Positions 1-16,061 of a DNA stretch of 16,061 nt are shown one piece after another. Position 1 is the stretch's first letter, and every line of letters begins with the position of its first letter. Source of the DNA: a virus (Duplodnaviria; Heunggongvirae; Uroviricota; Caudoviricetes); IMG/VR virus record IMGVR_UViG_2778261537_000017, positions 1 through 16,061 of that record; one strand, 5' to 3'. Under the pieces are notes generated by a model. The model did not search any database. It worked only from the letters and a program-made list of their open reading frames with translations, and was not told where the DNA came from. Both the position numbers and the translations under genes were made by a program.

Positions 1-624
1 GCCGGTAAGTAAGCCTTGAGGAACTCGCTTGTCGGCTAGACATTGGGTTCCGCGAATTATGTTAATCAGAGGGCTTAGTAACGATGGTTCCTGGCGGGCC
101 TCAACTTCTCCAGCCATTGCCCTGATGTAGTCGGCGCTTGCAACGTTGTTATATTCCGTTGCGAAGCAGCATAACAACGACAGAACGTGCTCTGTCGTTA
201 TTTCGCTCCAGTTGATGTTGAAAAATTCATCGCCTTTTTTGTCGTGTTCGGAATCGAAGATGCTTTGGTGGAGGATGTATTTGCCGGATTCTTTGCGCGG
301 TAACTTGATCGCTTTCTGGCGTTCCAGCTCCTTGTAAATCTGCATTGCTTCAATTAGTACCGGCCTGCCGTTCATGAAGGGATCGCGCAACCTTACACGC
401 TGGCCAACTCGACCCGTAATAAAGCTGTTTTCCTCTTCCACCAGCACGATAAAACCCTTTTCCTCTTTTTCTCGCAATTCGCGCAGCAGCTGGAGTTCCA
501 TATCGCGGCGGCGTTCAGGGTAGCTGGTCCGCTCAGCCATTATCAGCTCATTGTTGATCCATGCGGCAGTCATTGACGCCGGTTTGCCGACGCTCATCGA
601 AACAACGCATATTTTCTTATCCAT
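1..624 (-). CDS. mat: Phage protein at the P1 mat position (downstream of ref); N-terminal 208 codons only, C-terminus lies beyond the window
   Basis: Minus-strand frame is open from the ATG at 624-622 down to position 1 (I checked every in-frame triplet; no stop). RBS AAGGGG lies about 7 nt upstream. Translation begins MDKKICVVSMSVGKPASMTAAWINNELI. Not in the ORF track because no stop falls inside the window. The mat assignment is by position only. Confidence 0.6.
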   Translation of the reverse strand, partial: MDKKICVVSMSVGKPASMTAAWINNELIMAERTSYPERRRDMELQLLRELREKEEKGFIVLVEEENSFITGRVGQRVRLRDPFMNGRPVLIEAMQIYKELERQKAIKLPRKESGKYILHQSIFDSEHDKKGDEFFNINWSEITTEHVLSLLCCFATEYNNVASADYIRAMAGEVEARQEPSLLSPLINIIRGTQCLADKRVPQGLLTG

Positions 625-3340: not shown

Positions 3341-3413
3341 GATCAAATGATCAAGTGATCACTATTTGACCTGATAAGGTATTGAACTGTATGGATTTAC
3401 AGGTAAATTGATC
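3341..3413 (-). promoter_or_regulatory. Cre promoter region with clustered Dam (GATC) sites
   Basis: GATC at 3341, 3349 and 3357 (three within 20 bp) and at 3410, between loxP and cre. Consistent with the reported methylation-sensitive cre promoters in P1. Confidence 0.5.
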
Positions 3414-8348: not shown

Positions 8349-9392
8349 TTATCTAACGCTCGACGAGTGACTTGTGATAGCGCCGACTCCAAGCGCGTAA
8401 TCAAAGAACAATCGTTGATGCATCGCCAGCCTACCGTGCGTCTTCTCCCAATTATCGCGGTCACGCTCAATATCACGCTGGCATGACTGGCACAGAGGAA
8501 TAGCATAAATGTCATGCGCGCATAATCGACTATGACGAACGATATAAGGCGTAATGTGAGCGCCAGCTCCCGCAGCTCCACAGCCACAGCATGGACGGGA
8601 AGCCACAAAGTCCATGTACTCGGGCAATTTTAGCGATTGAAGTTTTGGTATTTTGAAATGCGCCATACCTGGGTCGGAGTCAACATCCACAGGGCATACT
8701 TTTGCACGCATCGGCGCGGCGCGTTCTTCCATCATCTGAACATATGCTGTAGCGCGATCGTCATACGGGCGAATATCCGCCTCTTTCAGAGGTCCGCTAT
8801 CCTGCGGAGTAGCCTTCATCTTATTTATTGATATGCGGCAGACTTCTTCCGGCATCAGGTGCATCATGTTGCGCATGAAAGCCCACCAGCACAGCTCCTG
8901 AATACTTAAATCATGGCTATTTGAAAGGCCCATTTCCTGACGGGCGACATCCAGTATCCAGTTAACGCGATTATTGTGCAGCGTTTCTTTCAGCTCATTA
9001 AAACCACGCATCCGGTAATGGTTATCGTGATGCCAGCACAACAACACCGCGCTATTGTCTCGTTCAGCGTGGACAATATGGTTGTCACACCAACTACGAT
9101 CTGCGGCCTGGCATTGACCCTCTTTCCTACGCAACCACACCACCAGCGCGTCAATTCCACCAATACGGCGAAACAGTTCATCGCTGTTAAAAAACGGCTG
9201 CAACGCCTCATTTGTTGCCATGGTTTGCTCGGTAACAACGAGGCCGTCTTCCATGTGCTCGATTAACTCACGCGGCACCGGCTCCATGATAAATTTACGG
9301 CCAGCCTCCACCAGCTTTCTGACCTCCTGATCCACTTTGAACGTGGCGAGGCCAAGCTCTTTCTGTACAAAGGGAGTAATTACGGCTTTCAC
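8349..9392 (-). CDS. pdcB: Post-doc protein B-like, 347 aa, with a C-terminal Cys-rich (zinc-ribbon-like) region; GTG start
   Basis: Complete ORF, GTG at 9392 with RBS AAAGGTG (alternative ATG at 9287). C-terminal region [40 protein letters not shown]. Sits between doc and lpa as in P1. Confidence 0.65.
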
Positions 9393-9419
9393 ATCACACC
9401 TTTAATCACTGATTGGGCT

Positions 9420-9599
9420 TTATCTGCTGCCCGGCATTCTCTGTTTAAGCACAACCATTTCCTGACGGCATAACACAGCAATAGCGGTCCTGACTCCAAT
9501 TTGCTTACCAACCAGGTATTGCTTTACCTTGCGGCGACTCACGCCATCAAGAAGCATCTTTAACGCTTCACGGGACAATTTGTTGTATTTGCGTGCCAT
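9420..9599 (-). CDS. pdcA: Small basic protein (59 aa) immediately after doc (post-doc protein A position)
   Basis: The ATG at 9599 (MARKYNKLSREALK...) lies 5 nt past the doc stop. The track ORF start at 9620 would overlap doc. Confidence 0.45.
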   Translation of the reverse strand: MARKYNKLSREALKMLLDGVSRRKVKQYLVGKQIGVRTAIAVLCRQEMVVLKQRMPGSR

Positions 9600-9603
9600 T
9601 AAT

Positions 9604-9984
9604 CTACTCCGCAGAACCATACAATCTACGTAACGTGTCGGCGACAGAAGATACAGATATCTCGCCAGTCGCAGCGCCTACAGTAAGGTCTGCCAGTTCA
9701 GGTGAATCAAATACCTGCACCCCGTTACGGCGTAGAAATAGCAGCGCACTGTTTAGCGCGGTACGCTTATTGGCATCATTGAATATATGCCCTCTCGCTG
9801 TAGCCACCAGGTAGGTGGCGGAGACTTCGAAAAGGTCGGTGATCTCTTCGTAGGCAACTCTGGCCTGAACTCTCCCGATAATGGCCTCTGCCCTACCCGG
9901 ATCTGACATTCCCGGCAGGCCGCCGTAGCGGCTTATATTCGCATCATGAAGCGCAATAAGTTCTTCCGGTGATATATGCCTCAT
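9604..9984 (-). CDS. doc: Doc toxin (Fic-fold kinase that targets EF-Tu), 126 aa
   Basis: Fic-type motif HIFNDANKR. Size matches P1 Doc. Start overlaps the phd stop. Confidence 0.95.
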
Positions 9985-10205
9985 TATCGGTTAACCAGTT
10001 CCTTGTTGGTGGAGTCCAGGGTGTCAAACAGGGATGCAAATTCAGCATCCAGCGCCGCTTTTTTGTAGGCTTCGAAAGTAGCCTTGCTGACAATTACTGC
10101 TGGCTCACGGCCTCTGCGGGTGATTTCAACCTCTTCCCCGGCTTCAACATTGTTGAGCACTTCAGAAAGGTTGCCACGCGCGGTACGGAAGTTAATGGAT
10201 TGCAT
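9984..10205 (-). CDS. phd: Phd antitoxin, 73 aa
   Basis: [49 protein letters not shown]... from the ATG at 10205 (the track ORF begins two codons earlier at a GTG). TAATG-type overlap with the doc start. Confidence 0.95.
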
Positions 10206-10212
10206 AAACACC

Positions 10213-10240
10213 TCGTGTACTCGTTATGTGTACACAATTA
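10213..10240 (-). promoter_or_regulatory. phd-doc promoter/operator region with GTGTAC-type palindromes
   Basis: cGTGTACtcgttatGTGTACACaa lies between the humD stop and the phd start. Confidence 0.55.
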
Positions 10241-10277
10241 TAAACTTCACAGGCATAAAGCACCAGCACTTTGCAGC

Positions 10278-10667
10278 TTAAATAACCGGACAATCATCAA
10301 ATTCCCCACTTCGGGCATCATTGATGACATGAGTGATCACACCAAAAACAGCATTACTGCCCGTGTATCCATCGTCATCTACTGGTAACGCCTCTTTCTT
10401 CCCGGTGCTTAAATCCTCCAGGTGCTGGCGCGGATACTTCCTGTATCTCTTTATGCGATATTCACCCTCCATAGCGCACACAAGCAGAGAACCATCAACC
10501 GGAGTAAGCGAGGAATCAACCACCAGCAAAGCACCCTGCAATATTCCCTCACGGTGATGGCTATCAGCTGCCCGCATGAAGTAGGTTGCTGATGGATGCC
10601 TGATTAGTTGCTGATCAAGAGAAATTCGGCTTTCAACATAATCCGCCGCAGGAGAAGGGAAGCCCAT
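10278..10667 (-). CDS. humD: HumD, UmuD'-like translesion-synthesis accessory protein, 129 aa
   Basis: Complete ORF with RBS GAGGTGA. Size and position (directly upstream of phd/doc) match P1 humD. Confidence 0.88.
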   Translation of the reverse strand: MGFPSPAADYVESRISLDQQLIRHPSATYFMRAADSHHREGILQGALLVVDSSLTPVDGSLLVCAMEGEYRIKRYRKYPRQHLEDLSTGKKEALPVDDDGYTGSNAVFGVITHVINDARSGEFDDCPVI

Positions 10668-10686
10668 AGCGTTTTCACCTCAATAA

Positions 10687-10706
10687 TACTGTTCATTTAT
10701 ACAGTA
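10687..10706 (-). promoter_or_regulatory. LexA (SOS) box upstream of humD
   Basis: tactgttcatttatacagta has the CTGT-N8-ACAG architecture and matches the E. coli LexA consensus TACTGTATATATATACAGTA at about 16/20. It lies about 20 nt upstream of the humD RBS. Confidence 0.7.
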
Positions 10707-10841
10707 TACATTAAAGAGACACCTTTGGTGCAAACGCGTTACGTACATCAACCACCGCTGATGATTTTGTGCTCTTTGCTACTATTCATCACCAACGGAT
10801 CAGCGTAACCTCGTTGCCAATCAGTTAATAAGGAATTAGCT

Positions 10842-11426
10842 ATGCCTAATCGCATTCCTCTCGATCCTATATTGCCCAAAAATTTTGACTGCACTCCTAA
10901 CGAGAAACGCTCTAAAGCTCAGCTGGACGCCTGGTGGGACCATCCATATGGGGTTACACAACCTGACGGGAAAATTGTAGTTTATTGTCTGAATGGTGGG
11001 GCGTGGGACCGTCCATCCGTGCTTTGTTTGGCAGATAACTATGATGAAGCCTGTGAACTTGCCGAAAGACAGCAGGCAAGCTGGGTAAAAACACGGTCTG
11101 AACCGACATTCATGTTTTCAAAAGAACCGCCATTTATACTGGCGAGGATGCCGCAGCGACCGGATCATCAACAAGAAATTGTTGCTGAATTTTCCTCTAG
11201 GGATGAGATGAATCTCTTCTCATTAAAGCAGGAAGAAAGGGATCGCGTCGAAGTGTCTCCAACTCTCGACCACAACCGGATGAACCTGGCCCAGCTCGCC
11301 TGGTACAGCAAAGAATTAGAGATGTCTATTGCCCGGCTTGAAAACGAAAAAGCCGCTATCCAAGTCCAGCACGAAGTAGTTCTGAACCGGATTAGAGAAA
11401 TGCAAAACGATAACAGGGGATTTTGA
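10842..11426 (+). CDS. Hypothetical protein, 194 aa (first gene of a coupled two-gene operon)
   Basis: Complete ORF, AGGA RBS 7 nt upstream. No motif I recognise. The C-terminal third is rich in charged residues with heptad-like spacing (possible coiled coil). No long hydrophobic segment. Confidence 0.7.
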   Translation: MPNRIPLDPILPKNFDCTPNEKRSKAQLDAWWDHPYGVTQPDGKIVVYCLNGGAWDRPSVLCLADNYDEACELAERQQASWVKTRSEPTFMFSKEPPFILARMPQRPDHQQEIVAEFSSRDEMNLFSLKQEERDRVEVSPTLDHNRMNLAQLAWYSKELEMSIARLENEKAAIQVQHEVVLNRIREMQNDNRGF

Positions 11427-11783
11427 ATGGCTAAAATCGAGTACCATCGCGATCGCGGTAATTACCTGGAAATATACGATCATGAATCTCTTAACGATAT
11501 CAACGATGCGTTATATGAATACTGTGAAAAAACGAGCATCACAGATGCACCTGATGCATTTGTCGAGCTGCCGGTATATCTCCGCGACATCTATGCAATA
11601 CGAACACCGCCCGTATCGGTGATTCACATTGGCTATGTCCGCCTGTCCATCGAAGAAGATGAAGATCGTTATATCGTGCGCCACTATACATTGGACAGAA
11701 AAGAACTTCCTAATGAATGGAACATGAGTAATTTCTACAACGGTGAATATGGCTTAAAATCCGCTAATAATTTACGGTCATAA
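11427..11783 (+). CDS. Hypothetical acidic protein, 118 aa (second gene, translationally coupled)
   Basis: Its ATG directly follows the upstream TGA (TGAATG). AGGGGA RBS lies inside the end of the upstream gene. No recognisable motif. Confidence 0.7.
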   Translation: MAKIEYHRDRGNYLEIYDHESLNDINDALYEYCEKTSITDAPDAFVELPVYLRDIYAIRTPPVSVIHIGYVRLSIEEDEDRYIVRHYTLDRKELPNEWNMSNFYNGEYGLKSANNLRS

Positions 11784-12336
11784 TCTATACAGGCATGTAT
11801 AACAACAACGAGCCTATTAGCTGTCAACAACGTTATTTTCTCAAATAAGAAAAAGCAGAAAGCAAATTGTTTAAGGTCACAAATTGTGGCCTTGATGGAG
11901 GAGGGAGGCTTATTGGCTATGGCTAAAAATCAAATTAGACACTTCATGTTGCTGTAGCTCATCAAGATCCGAGGCCACAAAACCTTTTCCGAAAAACTTC
12001 ACAAGTAACTCACTAGCCGCATCATTGTCACCTATTACACGAAAGTCATACGGCAACGTCGCAAGTTGACGATGTAATCCTGCTGAGAAAGTCGAATCTA
12101 ACAGCGCCCAGAATTCCCACCGCAGGATAATACTCGCCTCTTAACACTGTATATATGTTGTTACGATATGTTTTTCTGTCTCTAAAAAAAGATGTTAATA
12201 GAATGCTAACCATTGAAGGGGATAAAAATATACAATTCCAACAAACGTTATTTTTAACAATTTTTTTCTTTGCGTTGACTTTCCCGGACACCTTGTCTGA
12301 CCTAAGGTGCGCGAAAGCCACTTTTTCCTTCCTGAG

Positions 12337-12357
12337 TTATCCACAAAGTTATGCACT
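12337..12357 (+). promoter_or_regulatory. Tandem DnaA boxes in the nrdA regulatory region
   Basis: TTATCCACA (12337-12345) is a perfect DnaA box; TTATGCACT (12349-12357) matches 8/9. Confidence 0.65.
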
Positions 12358-12374
12358 TGCAAGAGGGCCATTTT

Positions 12375-12420
12375 CACACTATCTTGCAGTGAATCCCAAA
12401 CATACCCCCTATATATAGTG
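12375..12420 (+). promoter_or_regulatory. Two NrdR-box-like palindromes over the nrdA promoter
   Basis: CACACTATCTTGCAGTG (12375-12391) and CCCCTATATATAGTG (12406-12420) match the NrdR box pattern as recalled, spaced about 31 bp apart. Confidence 0.6.
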
Positions 12421-12498
12421 TTCTAAGCAGCTTCCCGTACTACAGGTAGTCTGCATGAAACTATTGCGGAAAGAATTCCAAAAACAGGTACGACATAC

Positions 12499-14784
12499 AT
12501 GAATCAGAATCTGCTGGTGACAAAGCGCGACGGTAGCACAGAGCGCATCAATCTCGACAAAATCCATCGCGTTCTGGATTGGGCGGCAGAAGGACTGCAT
12601 AACGTTTCGATTTCCCAGGTCGAGCTGCGCTCCCACATTCAGTTTTATGACGGTATCAAGACCTCTGACATCCACGAAACCATTATCAAGGCGGCCGCAG
12701 ACCTGATCTCCCGTGATGCGCCGGATTATCAGTATCTCGCCGCGCGCCTGGCGATCTTCCACCTGCGTAAAAAAGCCTACGGCCAGTTTGAGCCGCCTGC
12801 GCTGTACGACCACGTGGTGAAAATGGTCGAGATGGGCAAATACGATAATCATCTGCTGGAAGACTACACGGAAGAAGAGTTCAAGCAGATGGACACGTTT
12901 ATCGATCACGACCGTGATATGACCTTCTCTTATGCTGCCGTTAAGCAGCTGGAAGGCAAATATCTGGTACAGAACCGCGTGACCGGCGAAATCTACGAAA
13001 GCGCCCAGTTCCTTTATATTCTGGTTGCCGCGTGCCTGTTCTCGAACTACCCGCGTGAAACGCGCCTGCAATATGTGAAGCGTTTTTACGACGCGGTTTC
13101 CACATTTAAAATTTCGCTGCCGACGCCAATCATGTCCGGCGTGCGTACCCCGACTCGTCAGTTCAGCTCCTGCGTACTGATCGAGTGCGGTGACAGTCTG
13201 GATTCCATCAACGCTACCTCCAGCGCGATTGTGAAATACGTTTCCCAGCGTGCCGGGATCGGCATCAACGCCGGGCGTATTCGTGCGCTGGGTAGCCCGA
13301 TTCGCGGTGGTGAAGCGTTCCATACCGGCTGTATTCCGTTCTACAAACATTTCCAGACAGCGGTGAAATCCTGCTCTCAGGGCGGCGTGCGCGGCGGTGC
13401 GGCAACGCTGTTCTACCCGATGTGGCATCTGGAAGTGGAAAGCCTGCTGGTGTTGAAAAACAACCGTGGTGTGGAAGGCAACCGCGTGCGCCATATGGAC
13501 TACGGGGTACAGATCAACAAACTGATGTATACCCGCCTGCTGAAAGGTGAAGATATCACCCTGTTCAGCCCGTCCGACGTACCGGGGCTGTACGACGCAT
13601 TCTTCGCCGATCAGGAAGAGTTTGAACGCCTGTATACCAAATATGAGAAAGACGACAGCATCCGCAAGCAGCGTGTGAAAGCCGTTGAGCTGTTCTCGCT
13701 GATGATGCAGGAACGTGCGTCTACCGGTCGTATCTATATTCAGAACGTTGACCACTGCAATACCCATAGCCCGTTTGATCCGGCCATCGCGCCAGTGCGT
13801 CAGTCTAACCTGTGCCTGGAGATAGCCCTGCCGACCAAACCGCTGAACGACGTCAACGACGAGAACGGTGAAATCGCGCTGTGTACGCTGTCTGCTTTCA
13901 ACCTGGGCGCAATTAATAGCCTGGATGAACTGGAAGAGCTGGCAATTCTGGCGGTTCGTGCACTTGACGCGCTGCTGGATTATCAGGATTACCCGATCCC
14001 GGCCGCCAAACGTGGAGCGATGGGTCGTCGAACGCTGGGTATTGGTGTGATCAACTTCGCTTACTACCTGGCGAAGCACGGTGTGCGTTACTCCGACGGC
14101 AGCGCCAACAACCTGACGCATAAAACCTTCGAAGCGATTCAGTATTACCTGCTGAAAGCGTCTAACGAGCTGGCAAAAGAGCAAGGCGCGTGCCCGTGGT
14201 TTAACGAAACCACTTACGCGAAAGGGATCCTGCCGATCGATACCTATAAGAAAGATCTGGATACCATCGCTAATGAGCCGCTTCATTACGACTGGGAAGC
14301 ATTGCGTGAATCAATCAAAACGCACGGCCTGCGTAACTCCACGCTTTCTGCCCTGATGCCGTCAGAGACTTCTTCACAGATCTCTAACGCCACTAACGGT
14401 ATTGAACCGCCGCGCGGTTACGTCAGCATCAAAGCGTCGAAAGACGGTATTTTGCGCCAGGTGGTGCCGGACTACGAGCACCTGCACGACGCCTATGAGC
14501 TGCTGTGGGAAATGCCGGGTAACGATGGCTACCTGCAACTGGTAGGTATCATGCAGAAATTTATCGATCAGTCGATCTCTGCTAACACCAACTACGATCC
14601 GTCACGTTTCCCGTCAGGAAAAGTGCCGATGCAGCAGTTGCTGAAAGACCTGCTCACCGCCTACAAATTCGGGGTCAAAACGCTGTATTATCAGAACACC
14701 CGTGACGGCGCTGAAGACGCGCAGGACGATCTGGTACCGTCAATCCAGGACGATGGCTGCGAAAGCGGCGCATGTAAGATCTGA
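12499..14784 (+). CDS. nrdA: Ribonucleoside-diphosphate reductase 1, alpha subunit, 761 aa
   Basis: Complete [36 protein letters not shown]..., essentially the E. coli NrdA sequence as recalled. ATP-cone N-terminus; C-terminal ...CESGACKI. Confidence 0.98.
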
Positions 14785-14793
14785 TATTGAGAT

Positions 14794-14908
14794 GCCGGAT
14801 GCAGCGTGAACGCCTTATCCGGCCTACGGCTCGGATTTGTAGGCCTGATAAGACGCGTCAGCGTCGCATCAGGCACAGGATGCGGCGTAAAATGCCTTAT
14901 CCGGCATT
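14794..14908. repeat. REP/BIME cluster (three REP units in alternating orientation) between nrdA and nrdB
   Basis: GCCGGATGCAGCGTGAACGCCTTATCCGGCCTAC (14794-14827), the inverted copy GTAGGCCTGATAAGACGCG...CGCATCAGGC (14839-14874), and GATGCGGCGTAAAATGCCTTATCCGGC (about 14878-14906). Confidence 0.85.
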
Positions 14909-14930
14909 AAACTCCCAACAGGACACACTC

Positions 14931-16061
14931 ATGGCATATACCACCTTTTCACAGACGAAAAATGATCAGCTCAAAGAACCGATGTTCTTTGGTCAGCCGG
15001 TCAACGTGGCTCGCTACGATCAGCAAAAATATGACATCTTCGAAAAGCTGATCGAAAAGCAGCTCTCTTTCTTCTGGCGTCCGGAAGAAGTTGACGTCTC
15101 CCGCGACCGTATCGATTACCAGGCACTGCCTGAACACGAAAAACACATCTTTATCAGCAACCTGAAATATCAGACGCTGCTGGATTCCATTCAGGGCCGT
15201 AGCCCGAACGTGGCACTGCTGCCGCTTATTTCTATTCCGGAACTGGAGACCTGGGTCGAAACCTGGGCGTTCTCAGAAACGATTCATTCCCGTTCCTATA
15301 CTCATATCATTCGTAATATCGTTAACGATCCGTCTGTTGTGTTTGACGATATCGTCACCAACGAGCAGATCCAGAAACGTGCGGAAGGGATCTCCAGCTA
15401 TTACGATGAGCTGATCGAAATGACCAGCTACTGGCATCTGCTGGGCGAAGGTACCCACACCGTTAACGGTAAAACTGTGACCGTTAGCCTGCGCGAGCTG
15501 AAGAAAAAACTGTATCTCTGCCTGATGAGCGTTAACGCGCTGGAAGCGATTCGTTTCTACGTCAGCTTTGCTTGTTCCTTCGCATTTGCAGAACGCGAAT
15601 TGATGGAAGGCAACGCCAAAATTATTCGCCTGATTGCCCGCGACGAAGCCCTGCACCTGACCGGCACCCAGCATATGCTGAATCTGCTGCGCAGCGGCGC
15701 GGACGATCCTGAGATGGCGGAAATTGCCGAAGAGTGTAAGCAGGAGTGCTATGACCTGTTTGTTCAGGCAGCTCAACAGGAGAAAGACTGGGCGGATTAT
15801 CTGTTCCGCGACGGTTCGATGATTGGTCTGAATAAAGACATTCTCTGCCAGTACGTTGAATACATCACCAATATCCGTATGCAGGCAGTCGGTTTGGATC
15901 TGCCGTTCCAGACGCGCTCCAACCCGATCCCATGGATCAACACCTGGCTGGTGTCTGATAACGTGCAGGTTGCTCCGCAGGAAGTGGAAGTCAGTTCTTA
16001 TCTGGTCGGGCAGATTGACGCGGAAGTGGACACCGACGATTTGAGTAACTTCCAACTCTGA
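14931..16061 (+). CDS. nrdB: Ribonucleoside-diphosphate reductase 1, beta subunit, 376 aa
   Basis: True start is the ATG at 14931 ([13 protein letters not shown]...) with an AGGA RBS. The track ORF from 14787 is an in-frame read-through of the REP cluster. The stop is the last codon of the window. Confidence 0.97.

What the first reader, a model, noticed from the sequence alone, without database searches (positions are those of the whole stretch)
10687..10706. Near-consensus LexA box directly upstream of humD
TACTGTTCATTTATACAGTA sits about 20 nt upstream of the humD RBS, so the UmuD'-like gene (and probably the phd-doc genes downstream of it) would be SOS-inducible. The box also lies in the divergent intergenic region shared with the unknown two-gene operon and could influence it.
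Basis: partly seen in the sequence, partly recalled or inferred. Interest (0 to 1): 0.45.

Follow-up and report, generated by a model that had tools for sequence, protein, structure and literature searches.

The report
Known LexA operator of phage humD
The 20-base palindrome is a real, strongly conserved binding site for the host SOS repressor LexA, sitting on the promoter of the phage P1-type humD (UmuD'-like) gene; the same site is already annotated in the phage P1 and P7 genome records, so it is correct but not new.

Summary
TACTGTTCATTTATACAGTA is at 10687-10706, a perfect TACTGT-N8-ACAGTA palindrome. It is the best LexA-like site in the window, and no shuffled window matches it.

The window is a P1/P7/SJ46-type phage-plasmid segment. 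The identical 20-mer, at the identical 19-nt distance from the humD ATG, is already annotated as a LexA binding site in the P1 and P7 GenBank records. The "unknown" divergent gene is P1 lxr ("LexA regulated function").

Comparative data show selection:
- All 87 humD loci examined carry the box.
- The two arms are almost invariant, while the central 8 nt and the flanks vary.
- The box stays with humD whether the upstream neighbour is lxr or hot, and also where phd-doc is absent.
- Six distant phage humD-like genes (N15, phiKO2 and others) have one too.

The best-supported promoter is TTGCAC-19-TATACT. Its -10 overlaps the box, the same layout as E. coli umuDC.

Control of lxr looks unlikely. 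SOS read-through into phd-doc is possible but untested.

Verdict: already known, low interest. LexA binding itself was not tested here.

The parts
10687..10706 (.). LexA (SOS) box. It reads TACTGTATAAATGAACAGTA towards humD and has perfect TACTGT/ACAGTA arms.
   Evidence: Sequence read. Unique in the window. Approximate heterology index 4.25, with 0 of 200 shuffles reaching it. Identical to the LexA sites annotated in the P1 and P7 records. Arms nearly invariant across 87 loci.
10703..10708 (-). Predicted -10 hexamer TATACT of the humD promoter. It overlaps the first 4 nt of the box. The predicted transcription start is near A10696.
   Evidence: Top-scoring sigma-70 candidate towards humD in the window, and in 6 of 7 independent upstream contexts. 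The TA immediately 5' of the box is conserved in 38 of 39 distinct sequences. This is a prediction only; the start site has not been mapped.
10728..10733 (-). Predicted -35 hexamer TTGCAC, with a 19-nt spacer to the -10.
   Evidence: TTGCAC, TTTCAC or TTGCAT occurs at the same offset in four otherwise dissimilar upstream contexts. In the window alone the score of 8.89 is only about the 75th percentile of background.
10676..10681 (-). Shine-Dalgarno GAGGTG of humD. It lies 8 nt before the ATG and 5 nt after the box.
   Evidence: Read directly from the sequence.
10278..10667 (-). humD, a 129-aa pre-truncated UmuD'-like protein and the gene the box controls.
   Evidence: Matches the NCBIfam NF051876 HumD equivalog at 220 bits (cutoff 120). 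Matches Pfam Peptidase_S24. 43% identical to E. coli UmuD, starting at UmuD Gly25. 100% identical to P7 and SJ46 HumD.
9604..10211 (-). phd-doc toxin-antitoxin genes directly downstream. They have their own promoter (Pphd -10 TATAAT at 10242-10237) and may also receive read-through from the humD promoter.
   Evidence: P1 and P7 annotation transferred by position. No terminator-like site between humD and phd. Co-transcription has not been tested.
10842..11783 (+). Divergent genes lxr / upf94.2 (10842-11426) and upf93.6 (11427-11783). They are neighbours of the box and probably not its target.
   Evidence: P1 and P7 annotation. They match only function-unknown PHROGs. The box is 135 nt from the ATG. 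An lxr homologue lying away from humD has no box.

Best explanation
The palindrome is the host-LexA operator of the humD promoter of a P1/P7/SJ46-type phage-plasmid.

In an undamaged lysogen a LexA dimer binds TACTGT-N8-ACAGTA. This covers the -10 hexamer (TATACT, 10708-10703) and the predicted start site (about 10696), and so keeps RNA polymerase off the promoter.

DNA damage activates RecA, LexA cleaves itself, and the promoter opens. HumD is then made. It is a UmuD' homologue that already lacks the N-terminal 24 residues, so it needs no RecA-mediated cleavage step. It can join host UmuC for translesion synthesis.

Shown here:
- the sequence and its statistical strength;
- its identity with the annotated P1 and P7 sites;
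- purifying selection on the two arms;
- linkage of the box to humD across different gene contexts;
- the layout shared with umuDC.

Inferred, not shown: actual LexA binding, the promoter and start-site positions, and inducibility.
For: - **Annotation.** The P1 record has protein_bind LexA 87545..87564, 'LexA binding site in the regulatory region of lxr and humD'. The P7 record has 94404..94423, 'regulation of humD expression'. P1's 20-mer and its 19-nt spacing to the ATG are identical to the window's.
- **Strength.** The approximate heterology index is 4.25, comparable with recA on the same scale, and 0 of 200 shuffles reach it.
- **Conservation.** All 87 humD loci have a box. There are 15 sequence variants, and all keep CTGT-N8-ACAG. 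The minor-allele fraction is 0.4% and 1.3% in the arms, 16% in the central 8 nt and 8-26% in the upstream flanks. All variants score 0.6-7.6.
- **Linkage to humD.** The box is present with lxr upstream (divergent) and with hot upstream (co-directional). It is present in plasmids without phd-doc. BLAST homology in many plasmids ends about 15 nt beyond the box.
- **Distant relatives.** Stand-alone MGFPSPA... genes in N15, phiKO2 (annotated lexA site), HK140, vB_Ecl_MII_003, Huey and Hafnia yong1 all have a strong box. In four of the six it starts 34-37 nt before the ATG.
- **Promoter.** The -10 TATACT overlapping the box is the top candidate in 6 of 7 contexts. In E. coli umuDC the top candidate is TTGATC-17-TACTGT, with the -10 inside the box, and that box also ends 19 nt before the ATG.
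- **Protein.** HumD starts at UmuD Gly25 and matches the HumD equivalog.
Against: - No binding or expression experiment could be consulted. McLenigan 1999 and Lobocka 2004 are not in the held library, and no P1 transcription-start data were found.
- The promoter call is weak on its own. The simple promoter scan finds nothing in 10500-11000. My matrix score for TTGCAC-19-TATACT is only about the 75th percentile of background, and a 19-nt spacer is unusual.
- The P1 record places its predicted PhumD about 440 bp upstream, inside lxr.
- The heterology matrix rests on a box list recalled from memory.
Confidence: 0.85

Rival explanations
1. Bidirectional operator. The same LexA site also represses the divergent lxr/upf94.2-upf93.6 operon, as the P1 gene name 'LexA regulated function' implies.
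For: The box lies in the shared 174-bp intergenic region. The P1 record describes it as being 'in the regulatory region of lxr and humD'. Weak + strand promoter candidates overlap the box: TTCACC-20-TACAGT at 6.67 and ATAATA-18-TACATT at 5.7.
Against: The box sits at the humD end of the region, 135 nt from the lxr ATG. The best + strand candidate (CTGATG-16-TACTAT with an upstream TG, 10758-10785) lies about 50 nt downstream of the box, where LexA would not block it. About half of close humD loci have hot rather than lxr upstream and still keep the box. The only lxr homologue found away from humD (L139, 66% identity) has no site better than a heterology index of 14.9; that is a single case.
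Confidence: 0.15
2. Roadblock rather than promoter occlusion. humD is transcribed from a distant upstream promoter, either the P1-annotated PhumD inside lxr or read-through from hot or late promoters. LexA bound just before the RBS then stops elongating polymerase.
For: The P1 annotation places PhumD about 440 bp upstream of the box. In hot-humD arrangements the upstream gene is co-directional, only about 100-120 bp away. The local promoter scores only moderately.
Against: The upstream sequence differs completely between contexts, yet a -35-like hexamer at a fixed offset and the TATACT -10 are retained. The umuDC homologue uses a promoter that overlaps its box. N15, vB_Ecl_MII_003 and Huey have the box at the same position with unrelated upstream genes.
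Confidence: 0.12
3. A chance palindrome, or an inert relic carried along with an ancestral umuD gene and no longer functional.
Against: 0 of 200 shuffles give an equally good site. The arms are almost invariant while the centre and flanks have diverged, across 87 loci and in distant phages. That pattern indicates ongoing selection rather than a relic.
Confidence: 0.02

Closest known systems
LexA binding site annotated upstream of humD in phage P1 (AF234172, 87545..87564) and phage P7 (AF503408, 94404..94423)
   Same: The 20-mer is identical (TACTGTATAAATGAACAGTA towards humD). The 19-nt distance to the humD ATG is identical. The flanking genes are the same: humD-phd-doc on one side and lxr/upf94.2 on the other. 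The window region is 98-99.7% identical to these phages.
   Different: Nothing differs in the box itself. Just 5' of the box the window, like 38 of 39 distinct relatives, has TATACT, whereas the P1 laboratory reference has TGTACT. Like P7 and SJ46, the window has a 194-aa Lxr followed by upf93.6. In P1, lxr is instead followed by a convergent hot gene.
E. coli umuDC operator/promoter (box TACTGTATATAAAAACAGTA; published heterology index 2.77, PMC2994835)
   Same: Both are perfect TACTGT/ACAGTA palindromes, 17 of 20 positions identical. Both end 19 nt before the start codon. In both, the best -10 candidate overlaps the promoter-distal arm. The gene products are homologous: 43% identity, with HumD starting at UmuD Gly25.
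   Different: humD encodes the already-truncated form and has no umuC partner next to it. The -10 candidate is shifted 2 nt (TATACT versus TACTGT). The -35 spacing is 19 nt rather than 17 nt. The central 8 nt differ.
LexA boxes of stand-alone umuD'-like genes in other temperate phages (phiKO2 gp23 with an annotated lexA site; N15 gp26; HK140 gp28; Huey; Hafnia yong1)
   Same: These proteins start MGFPSPA or VGFPSPA. Each gene is preceded by a strong TACTGT-N8-ACAG box, which in four of the six starts 34-37 nt before the ATG.
   Different: The phage lineages and gene contexts differ. phiKO2 pairs the gene with a divergent dinI, and HK140 has its box 282 nt upstream, ahead of an extra ORF. In N15 and phiKO2 a terminator follows the gene, rather than a toxin-antitoxin pair.
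The second P1 LexA site, at the P2coi promoter next to lox (AF234172, 46..65)
   Same: It uses the same host repressor and lies in the same window, at 3385-3404.
   Different: It is a weaker box (AACTGTATGGATTTACAGGT, approximate heterology index 7.4). It controls the C1-inactivator operon, that is the lysis-lysogeny switch, not a repair gene (PMC4713147).

Membership tests
Enterobacterial LexA (SOS) box | 20-bp palindrome matching TACTG(TA)5CAGTA, with the CTGT-N8-ACAG core intact | tested here: met
   17 of 20 positions match the consensus, and all 12 arm positions match. The consensus is as given in PMC6590174.
Enterobacterial LexA (SOS) box | Low heterology index, in the range of proven operators | tested here: met
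   The approximate index is 4.25 on a matrix built from 26 recalled E. coli boxes. On the same scale recA is 4.41, sulA 3.89 and lexA1 5.4. No shuffled window reaches it. Published values for comparison are recA 4.31 and umuDC 2.77. The matrix is approximate.
Enterobacterial LexA (SOS) box | Position overlapping or adjacent to the promoter of the regulated gene | tested here: inconclusive
   A conserved -10 candidate, TATACT, overlaps the box. However, the promoter is only predicted, the simple scan finds none, and the start site is unmapped.
Enterobacterial LexA (SOS) box | Conserved upstream of orthologous genes, with arms constrained and centre free to vary | tested here: met
   87 of 87 loci carry it. 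Arm variation is 0.4-1.3% against 16% in the centre. Six distant phages also have one.
Enterobacterial LexA (SOS) box | Binds LexA, and the gene is derepressed in lexA(Def) hosts or after DNA damage | not testable with these tools
   This needs EMSA, footprinting or reporter assays. The primary papers are not held. Only a secondary statement was found (PMC9603915).
HumD family (NCBIfam NF051876), the gene governed by the box | Profile score above the curated cutoff | tested here: met
   220.2 bits against a cutoff of 120.
HumD family (NCBIfam NF051876), the gene governed by the box | Begins at the position of the UmuD cleavage product (Gly25), with no adjacent umuC | tested here: met
   The alignment starts at HumD G2 = UmuD G25. 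The next gene downstream is phd.
P1-annotated humD/lxr LexA site | Same sequence, same position relative to humD, syntenic flanks | tested here: met

The most novel reading that the evidence does not exclude
Transcription released from the LexA-controlled humD promoter reads through the 72-nt, terminator-free gap into phd-doc. DNA damage would then transiently raise expression of the Phd-Doc addiction module, coupling the SOS response to toxin-antitoxin dosage in P1-type phage-plasmids.

A smaller novel point concerns the promoter itself. The conserved TTGCAC-19-TATACT promoter overlapping the box would be the real PhumD. The P1 laboratory reference carries an A-to-G change at its -11 position (TGTACT), which could explain weak HumD expression in P1 and why the P1 record places PhumD elsewhere.
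Probability: 0.3. Interest if true: 0.35.

Novelty: already known. Interest (0 to 1): 0.1.

Why it matters
The site ties a phage-borne, pre-activated UmuD' homologue to the host SOS switch. A P1-type lysogen would then supply the mutagenesis accessory factor only when DNA is damaged. This has been part of the standard annotation of P1 and P7 since their genomes were deposited, so the finding adds a correct annotation to this window rather than new biology.

The comparative results here refine the known picture in three small ways:
- The box travels with humD, not with lxr.
- A conserved -10 overlaps the box.
- The laboratory P1 reference is the odd one out at the -11 position.

Tried and rejected
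- **Simple promoter scan.** It found no sigma-70-like site in 10500-11000 or in 9300-10700. I replaced it with my own weight-matrix scan plus cross-context comparison.
- **A -10 inside the box centre** (TATAAA at 10701-10696) or just after the box (TATTAT at 10688-10683). Both were considered and rejected. The centre hexamer is not conserved in relatives (TATGAA, TATGGA, TATGTG and others), and the downstream one has no usable -35.
- **Function of Lxr and Upf93.6.** There were no hits in Pfam, NCBIfam or PADLOC, and only function-unknown PHROGs matched. For Lxr, the solved-structure search gave nothing below E = 0.4, and a single-sequence AlphaFold model had mean pLDDT 47.4, too poor to use for a fold search.
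- **Primary literature.** McLenigan 1999 (PMC94175) and Lobocka 2004 (PMC523184) are not held. Searches for P1 transcription-start or SOS transcriptome data found nothing relevant.
- **Weak hairpin at 10731-10719.** It was flagged as terminator-like on the - strand. It overlaps the -35 and spacer, and the sequence there differs in the other upstream contexts. I treated it as chance.

Full report
**Observation**

Positions 10687-10706 read TACTGTTCATTTATACAGTA on the + strand. On the - strand, the humD strand, they read TACTGTATAAATGAACAGTA.

- humD is the 129-codon ORF at 10278-10667 (-).
- Its ATG is at 10667-10665 and a GAGGTG Shine-Dalgarno is at 10681-10676.
- The box therefore ends 19 nt before the ATG and 5 nt before the RBS.
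- The site is the only TACTGT-N8-ACAGTA match in the window, even with two mismatches allowed.
- It is one of two CTGT-N8-ACAG matches, against 0.27 expected.

I built a heterology-index matrix from 26 E. coli LexA boxes. This list is recalled from the Lewis 1994 and Fernandez de Henestrosa 2000 compilations, and only the umuDC box was verified against sequence, so the scale is approximate.

- The site scores 4.25. On the same scale recA is 4.41, sulA 3.89 and lexA1 5.4.
- It is the best site in the window.
- None of 200 shuffled windows reached it (minimum 6.14, median 12.4).
- Published values for orientation are recA 4.31 and umuDC 2.77 (PMC2994835).

**What the locus is**

- Positions 9500-12000 are 99.7% identical to Salmonella phage SJ46, 99.1% to P7 and 98.1% to P1. 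The P1 match covers only the first 75% of that query.
- By position, the window carries cre-cra, lox, coi and c1, then pacB-pacA-lpa-pdcB-pdcA-doc-phd-humD on the - strand.
- The P1 record (AF234172) carries a protein_bind feature "LexA binding site in the regulatory region of lxr and humD" at 87545..87564.
- The P7 record (AF503408) has the equivalent feature, "regulation of humD expression".
- P1's 20-mer and its 19-nt distance to the humD ATG are identical to those in the window.
- A later paper states that humD is a LexA-regulated SOS gene (PMC9603915).

The feature is therefore already known and annotated.

**Evidence that the box is functional and belongs to humD**

I collected 80 loci from viral contigs that encode close HumD relatives, five plasmid loci at 72-92% nucleotide identity, and the P1 and P7 loci.

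- All 87 usable loci have a box. There are 15 sequence variants, and every one keeps CTGT-N8-ACAG.
- Across 39 distinct 110-nt segments, the minor-allele fraction is 0.4% in the left arm and 1.3% in the right arm.
- The same fraction is 16% in the central 8 nt and 8-26% in the upstream flanks. This is the pattern expected for a LexA dimer site.
- All variants score 0.6-7.6 on my scale.
- In many plasmids, BLAST homology to the window stops about 15 nt beyond the box (query position 157-162).
- Upstream of that point the neighbour differs. Of the 80 close loci, 38 have hot co-directional with no lxr, 28 have lxr divergent, and 9 have both.
- Some plasmids carry the box and humD with no phd-doc downstream.
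- Conversely, nearly all of the 55 lxr loci fetched sit next to humD and its box. The one full-length homologue found elsewhere (L139, 66% identity) has no site better than a heterology index of 14.9, which is within chance.
- Six distant phages with stand-alone genes starting MGFPSPA or VGFPSPA all have a strong box: N15 gp26, phiKO2 gp23, HK140 gp28, vB_Ecl_MII_003, Huey and Hafnia yong1.
- In four of the six that box starts 34-37 nt before the ATG, and in phiKO2 it is annotated as a lexA site.

**Mechanism**

HumD matches the NCBIfam HumD equivalog (220 bits; cutoff 120). It aligns to E. coli UmuD from Gly25 onward at 43% identity. It is therefore the pre-cleaved UmuD' form with no adjacent umuC, in line with the description of HumD in PMC7092418.

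My sigma-70 matrix uses textbook hexamer frequencies recalled from memory.

- Its best candidate towards humD is TTGCAC (10733-10728), a 19-nt spacer, then TATACT (10708-10703).
- That score of 8.89 is only about the 75th percentile of window background, so it is unconvincing on its own.
- The same TATACT, starting 2 nt before the box, is nevertheless the top candidate in 6 of 7 independent upstream contexts.
- In four otherwise dissimilar contexts it is paired with TTGCAC, TTTCAC or TTGCAT at a fixed offset. In two others it is paired with TTCAAA at 17 nt.
- For E. coli umuDC the same scan gives TTGATC-17-TACTGT, with the -10 forming the left arm of the box, and that box also ends 19 nt before the ATG.

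The most likely mechanism is therefore classical promoter occlusion. LexA on the box covers the -10 and the predicted start (about A10696), and LexA self-cleavage during SOS frees the promoter.

This differs from the P1 record, which predicts PhumD about 440 bp upstream, inside lxr.

One detail stands out. The P1 laboratory reference is the only one of 39 distinct sequences with G instead of A at the position that would be -11 (TGTACT). This would weaken the promoter. My recollection, unverified here, is that McLenigan et al. 1999 reported HumD to be poorly expressed in vivo.

*phd-doc.* The 72-nt gap between humD and phd shows no terminator-like site, and humD-phd-doc are contiguous in all close relatives. 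Read-through from the humD promoter is therefore possible. However, the gap holds phd's own promoter (Pphd; -10 TATAAT at 10242-10237, transferred from P1), and nothing here measures transcription. This claim cannot be decided.

*lxr operon.* Four observations argue against control by this box:
- The box is 135 nt from the lxr ATG.
- The best + strand promoter candidate (10758-10785) lies downstream of the box.
- The box is retained where lxr is absent.
- The lxr homologue found away from humD has no box, although that is a single case.

**Rivals**

- A bidirectional operator (confidence 0.15) and a roadblock to distant upstream transcription (0.12) remain possible. Neither is exclusive of LexA binding.
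- Chance or an inert relic is effectively excluded by the shuffles and the conservation pattern (0.02).

**Limits**

- No experiment on LexA binding or humD induction could be read. The two primary papers are not held, and no P1 start-site or SOS-transcriptome data were found.
- Both weight matrices rest on recalled values.
- Attempts to assign a function to Lxr and Upf93.6 failed.

**Verdict**

The feature is the known, annotated LexA operator of humD in P1-type phages. Novelty: already known. Interest: low.

Noticed in passing
window 3385-3404: A second LexA box, AACTGTATGGATTTACAGGT, with an approximate heterology index of 7.4, below the 5th percentile of shuffled windows. It lies between cra and lox. 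It corresponds to the P1-annotated 'LexA binding site' at 46..65, which overlaps the P2coi promoter of the C1-inactivator operon. Both of P1's annotated LexA sites are therefore inside this window.
   Followed up: yes
window 12244-16061 (junction zone 12244-12382): The right end of the window is not phage. From about 12244 it is 96-99.5% identical to the E. coli chromosomal nrdA-nrdB-yfaE region. P1-like plasmid homology runs up to 12382. The roughly 140-bp overlap, which contains a TTATCCACA DnaA-box motif, is shared by P1-like plasmids and the nrdA promoter region. None of 5,426 complete E. coli genomes covers at least 80% of 11300-12800, so none spans this junction. It is either recombination of a P1-like element with the chromosome through the shared segment, or an assembly chimera.
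   Followed up: partly
window 10707 versus L001 (P1 AF234172), the corresponding base: The P1 laboratory reference has G where this window and 37 other distinct relatives have A, giving TGTACT instead of TATACT immediately 5' of the box. This is the -11 position of the conserved -10 candidate, so it may be a promoter-down change specific to the laboratory strain.
   Followed up: partly
window 10842-11783; loci L003, L004, L006: In roughly half of close relatives, hot (the DNA polymerase III theta homologue) lies directly upstream of the box and humD in the same orientation, and lxr/upf93.6 are absent. The lxr segment therefore behaves as a variable insert between hot and humD. Lxr and Upf93.6 match only function-unknown PHROG families.
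   Followed up: partly
L148 (phiKO2) 355-375; L149 (HK140): In phiKO2 the LexA box of the umuD'-like gene is shared with a divergent dinI homologue. HK140 also has a dinI homologue next to the module. Phage humD-like genes thus tend to sit with other SOS modulators.
   Followed up: no
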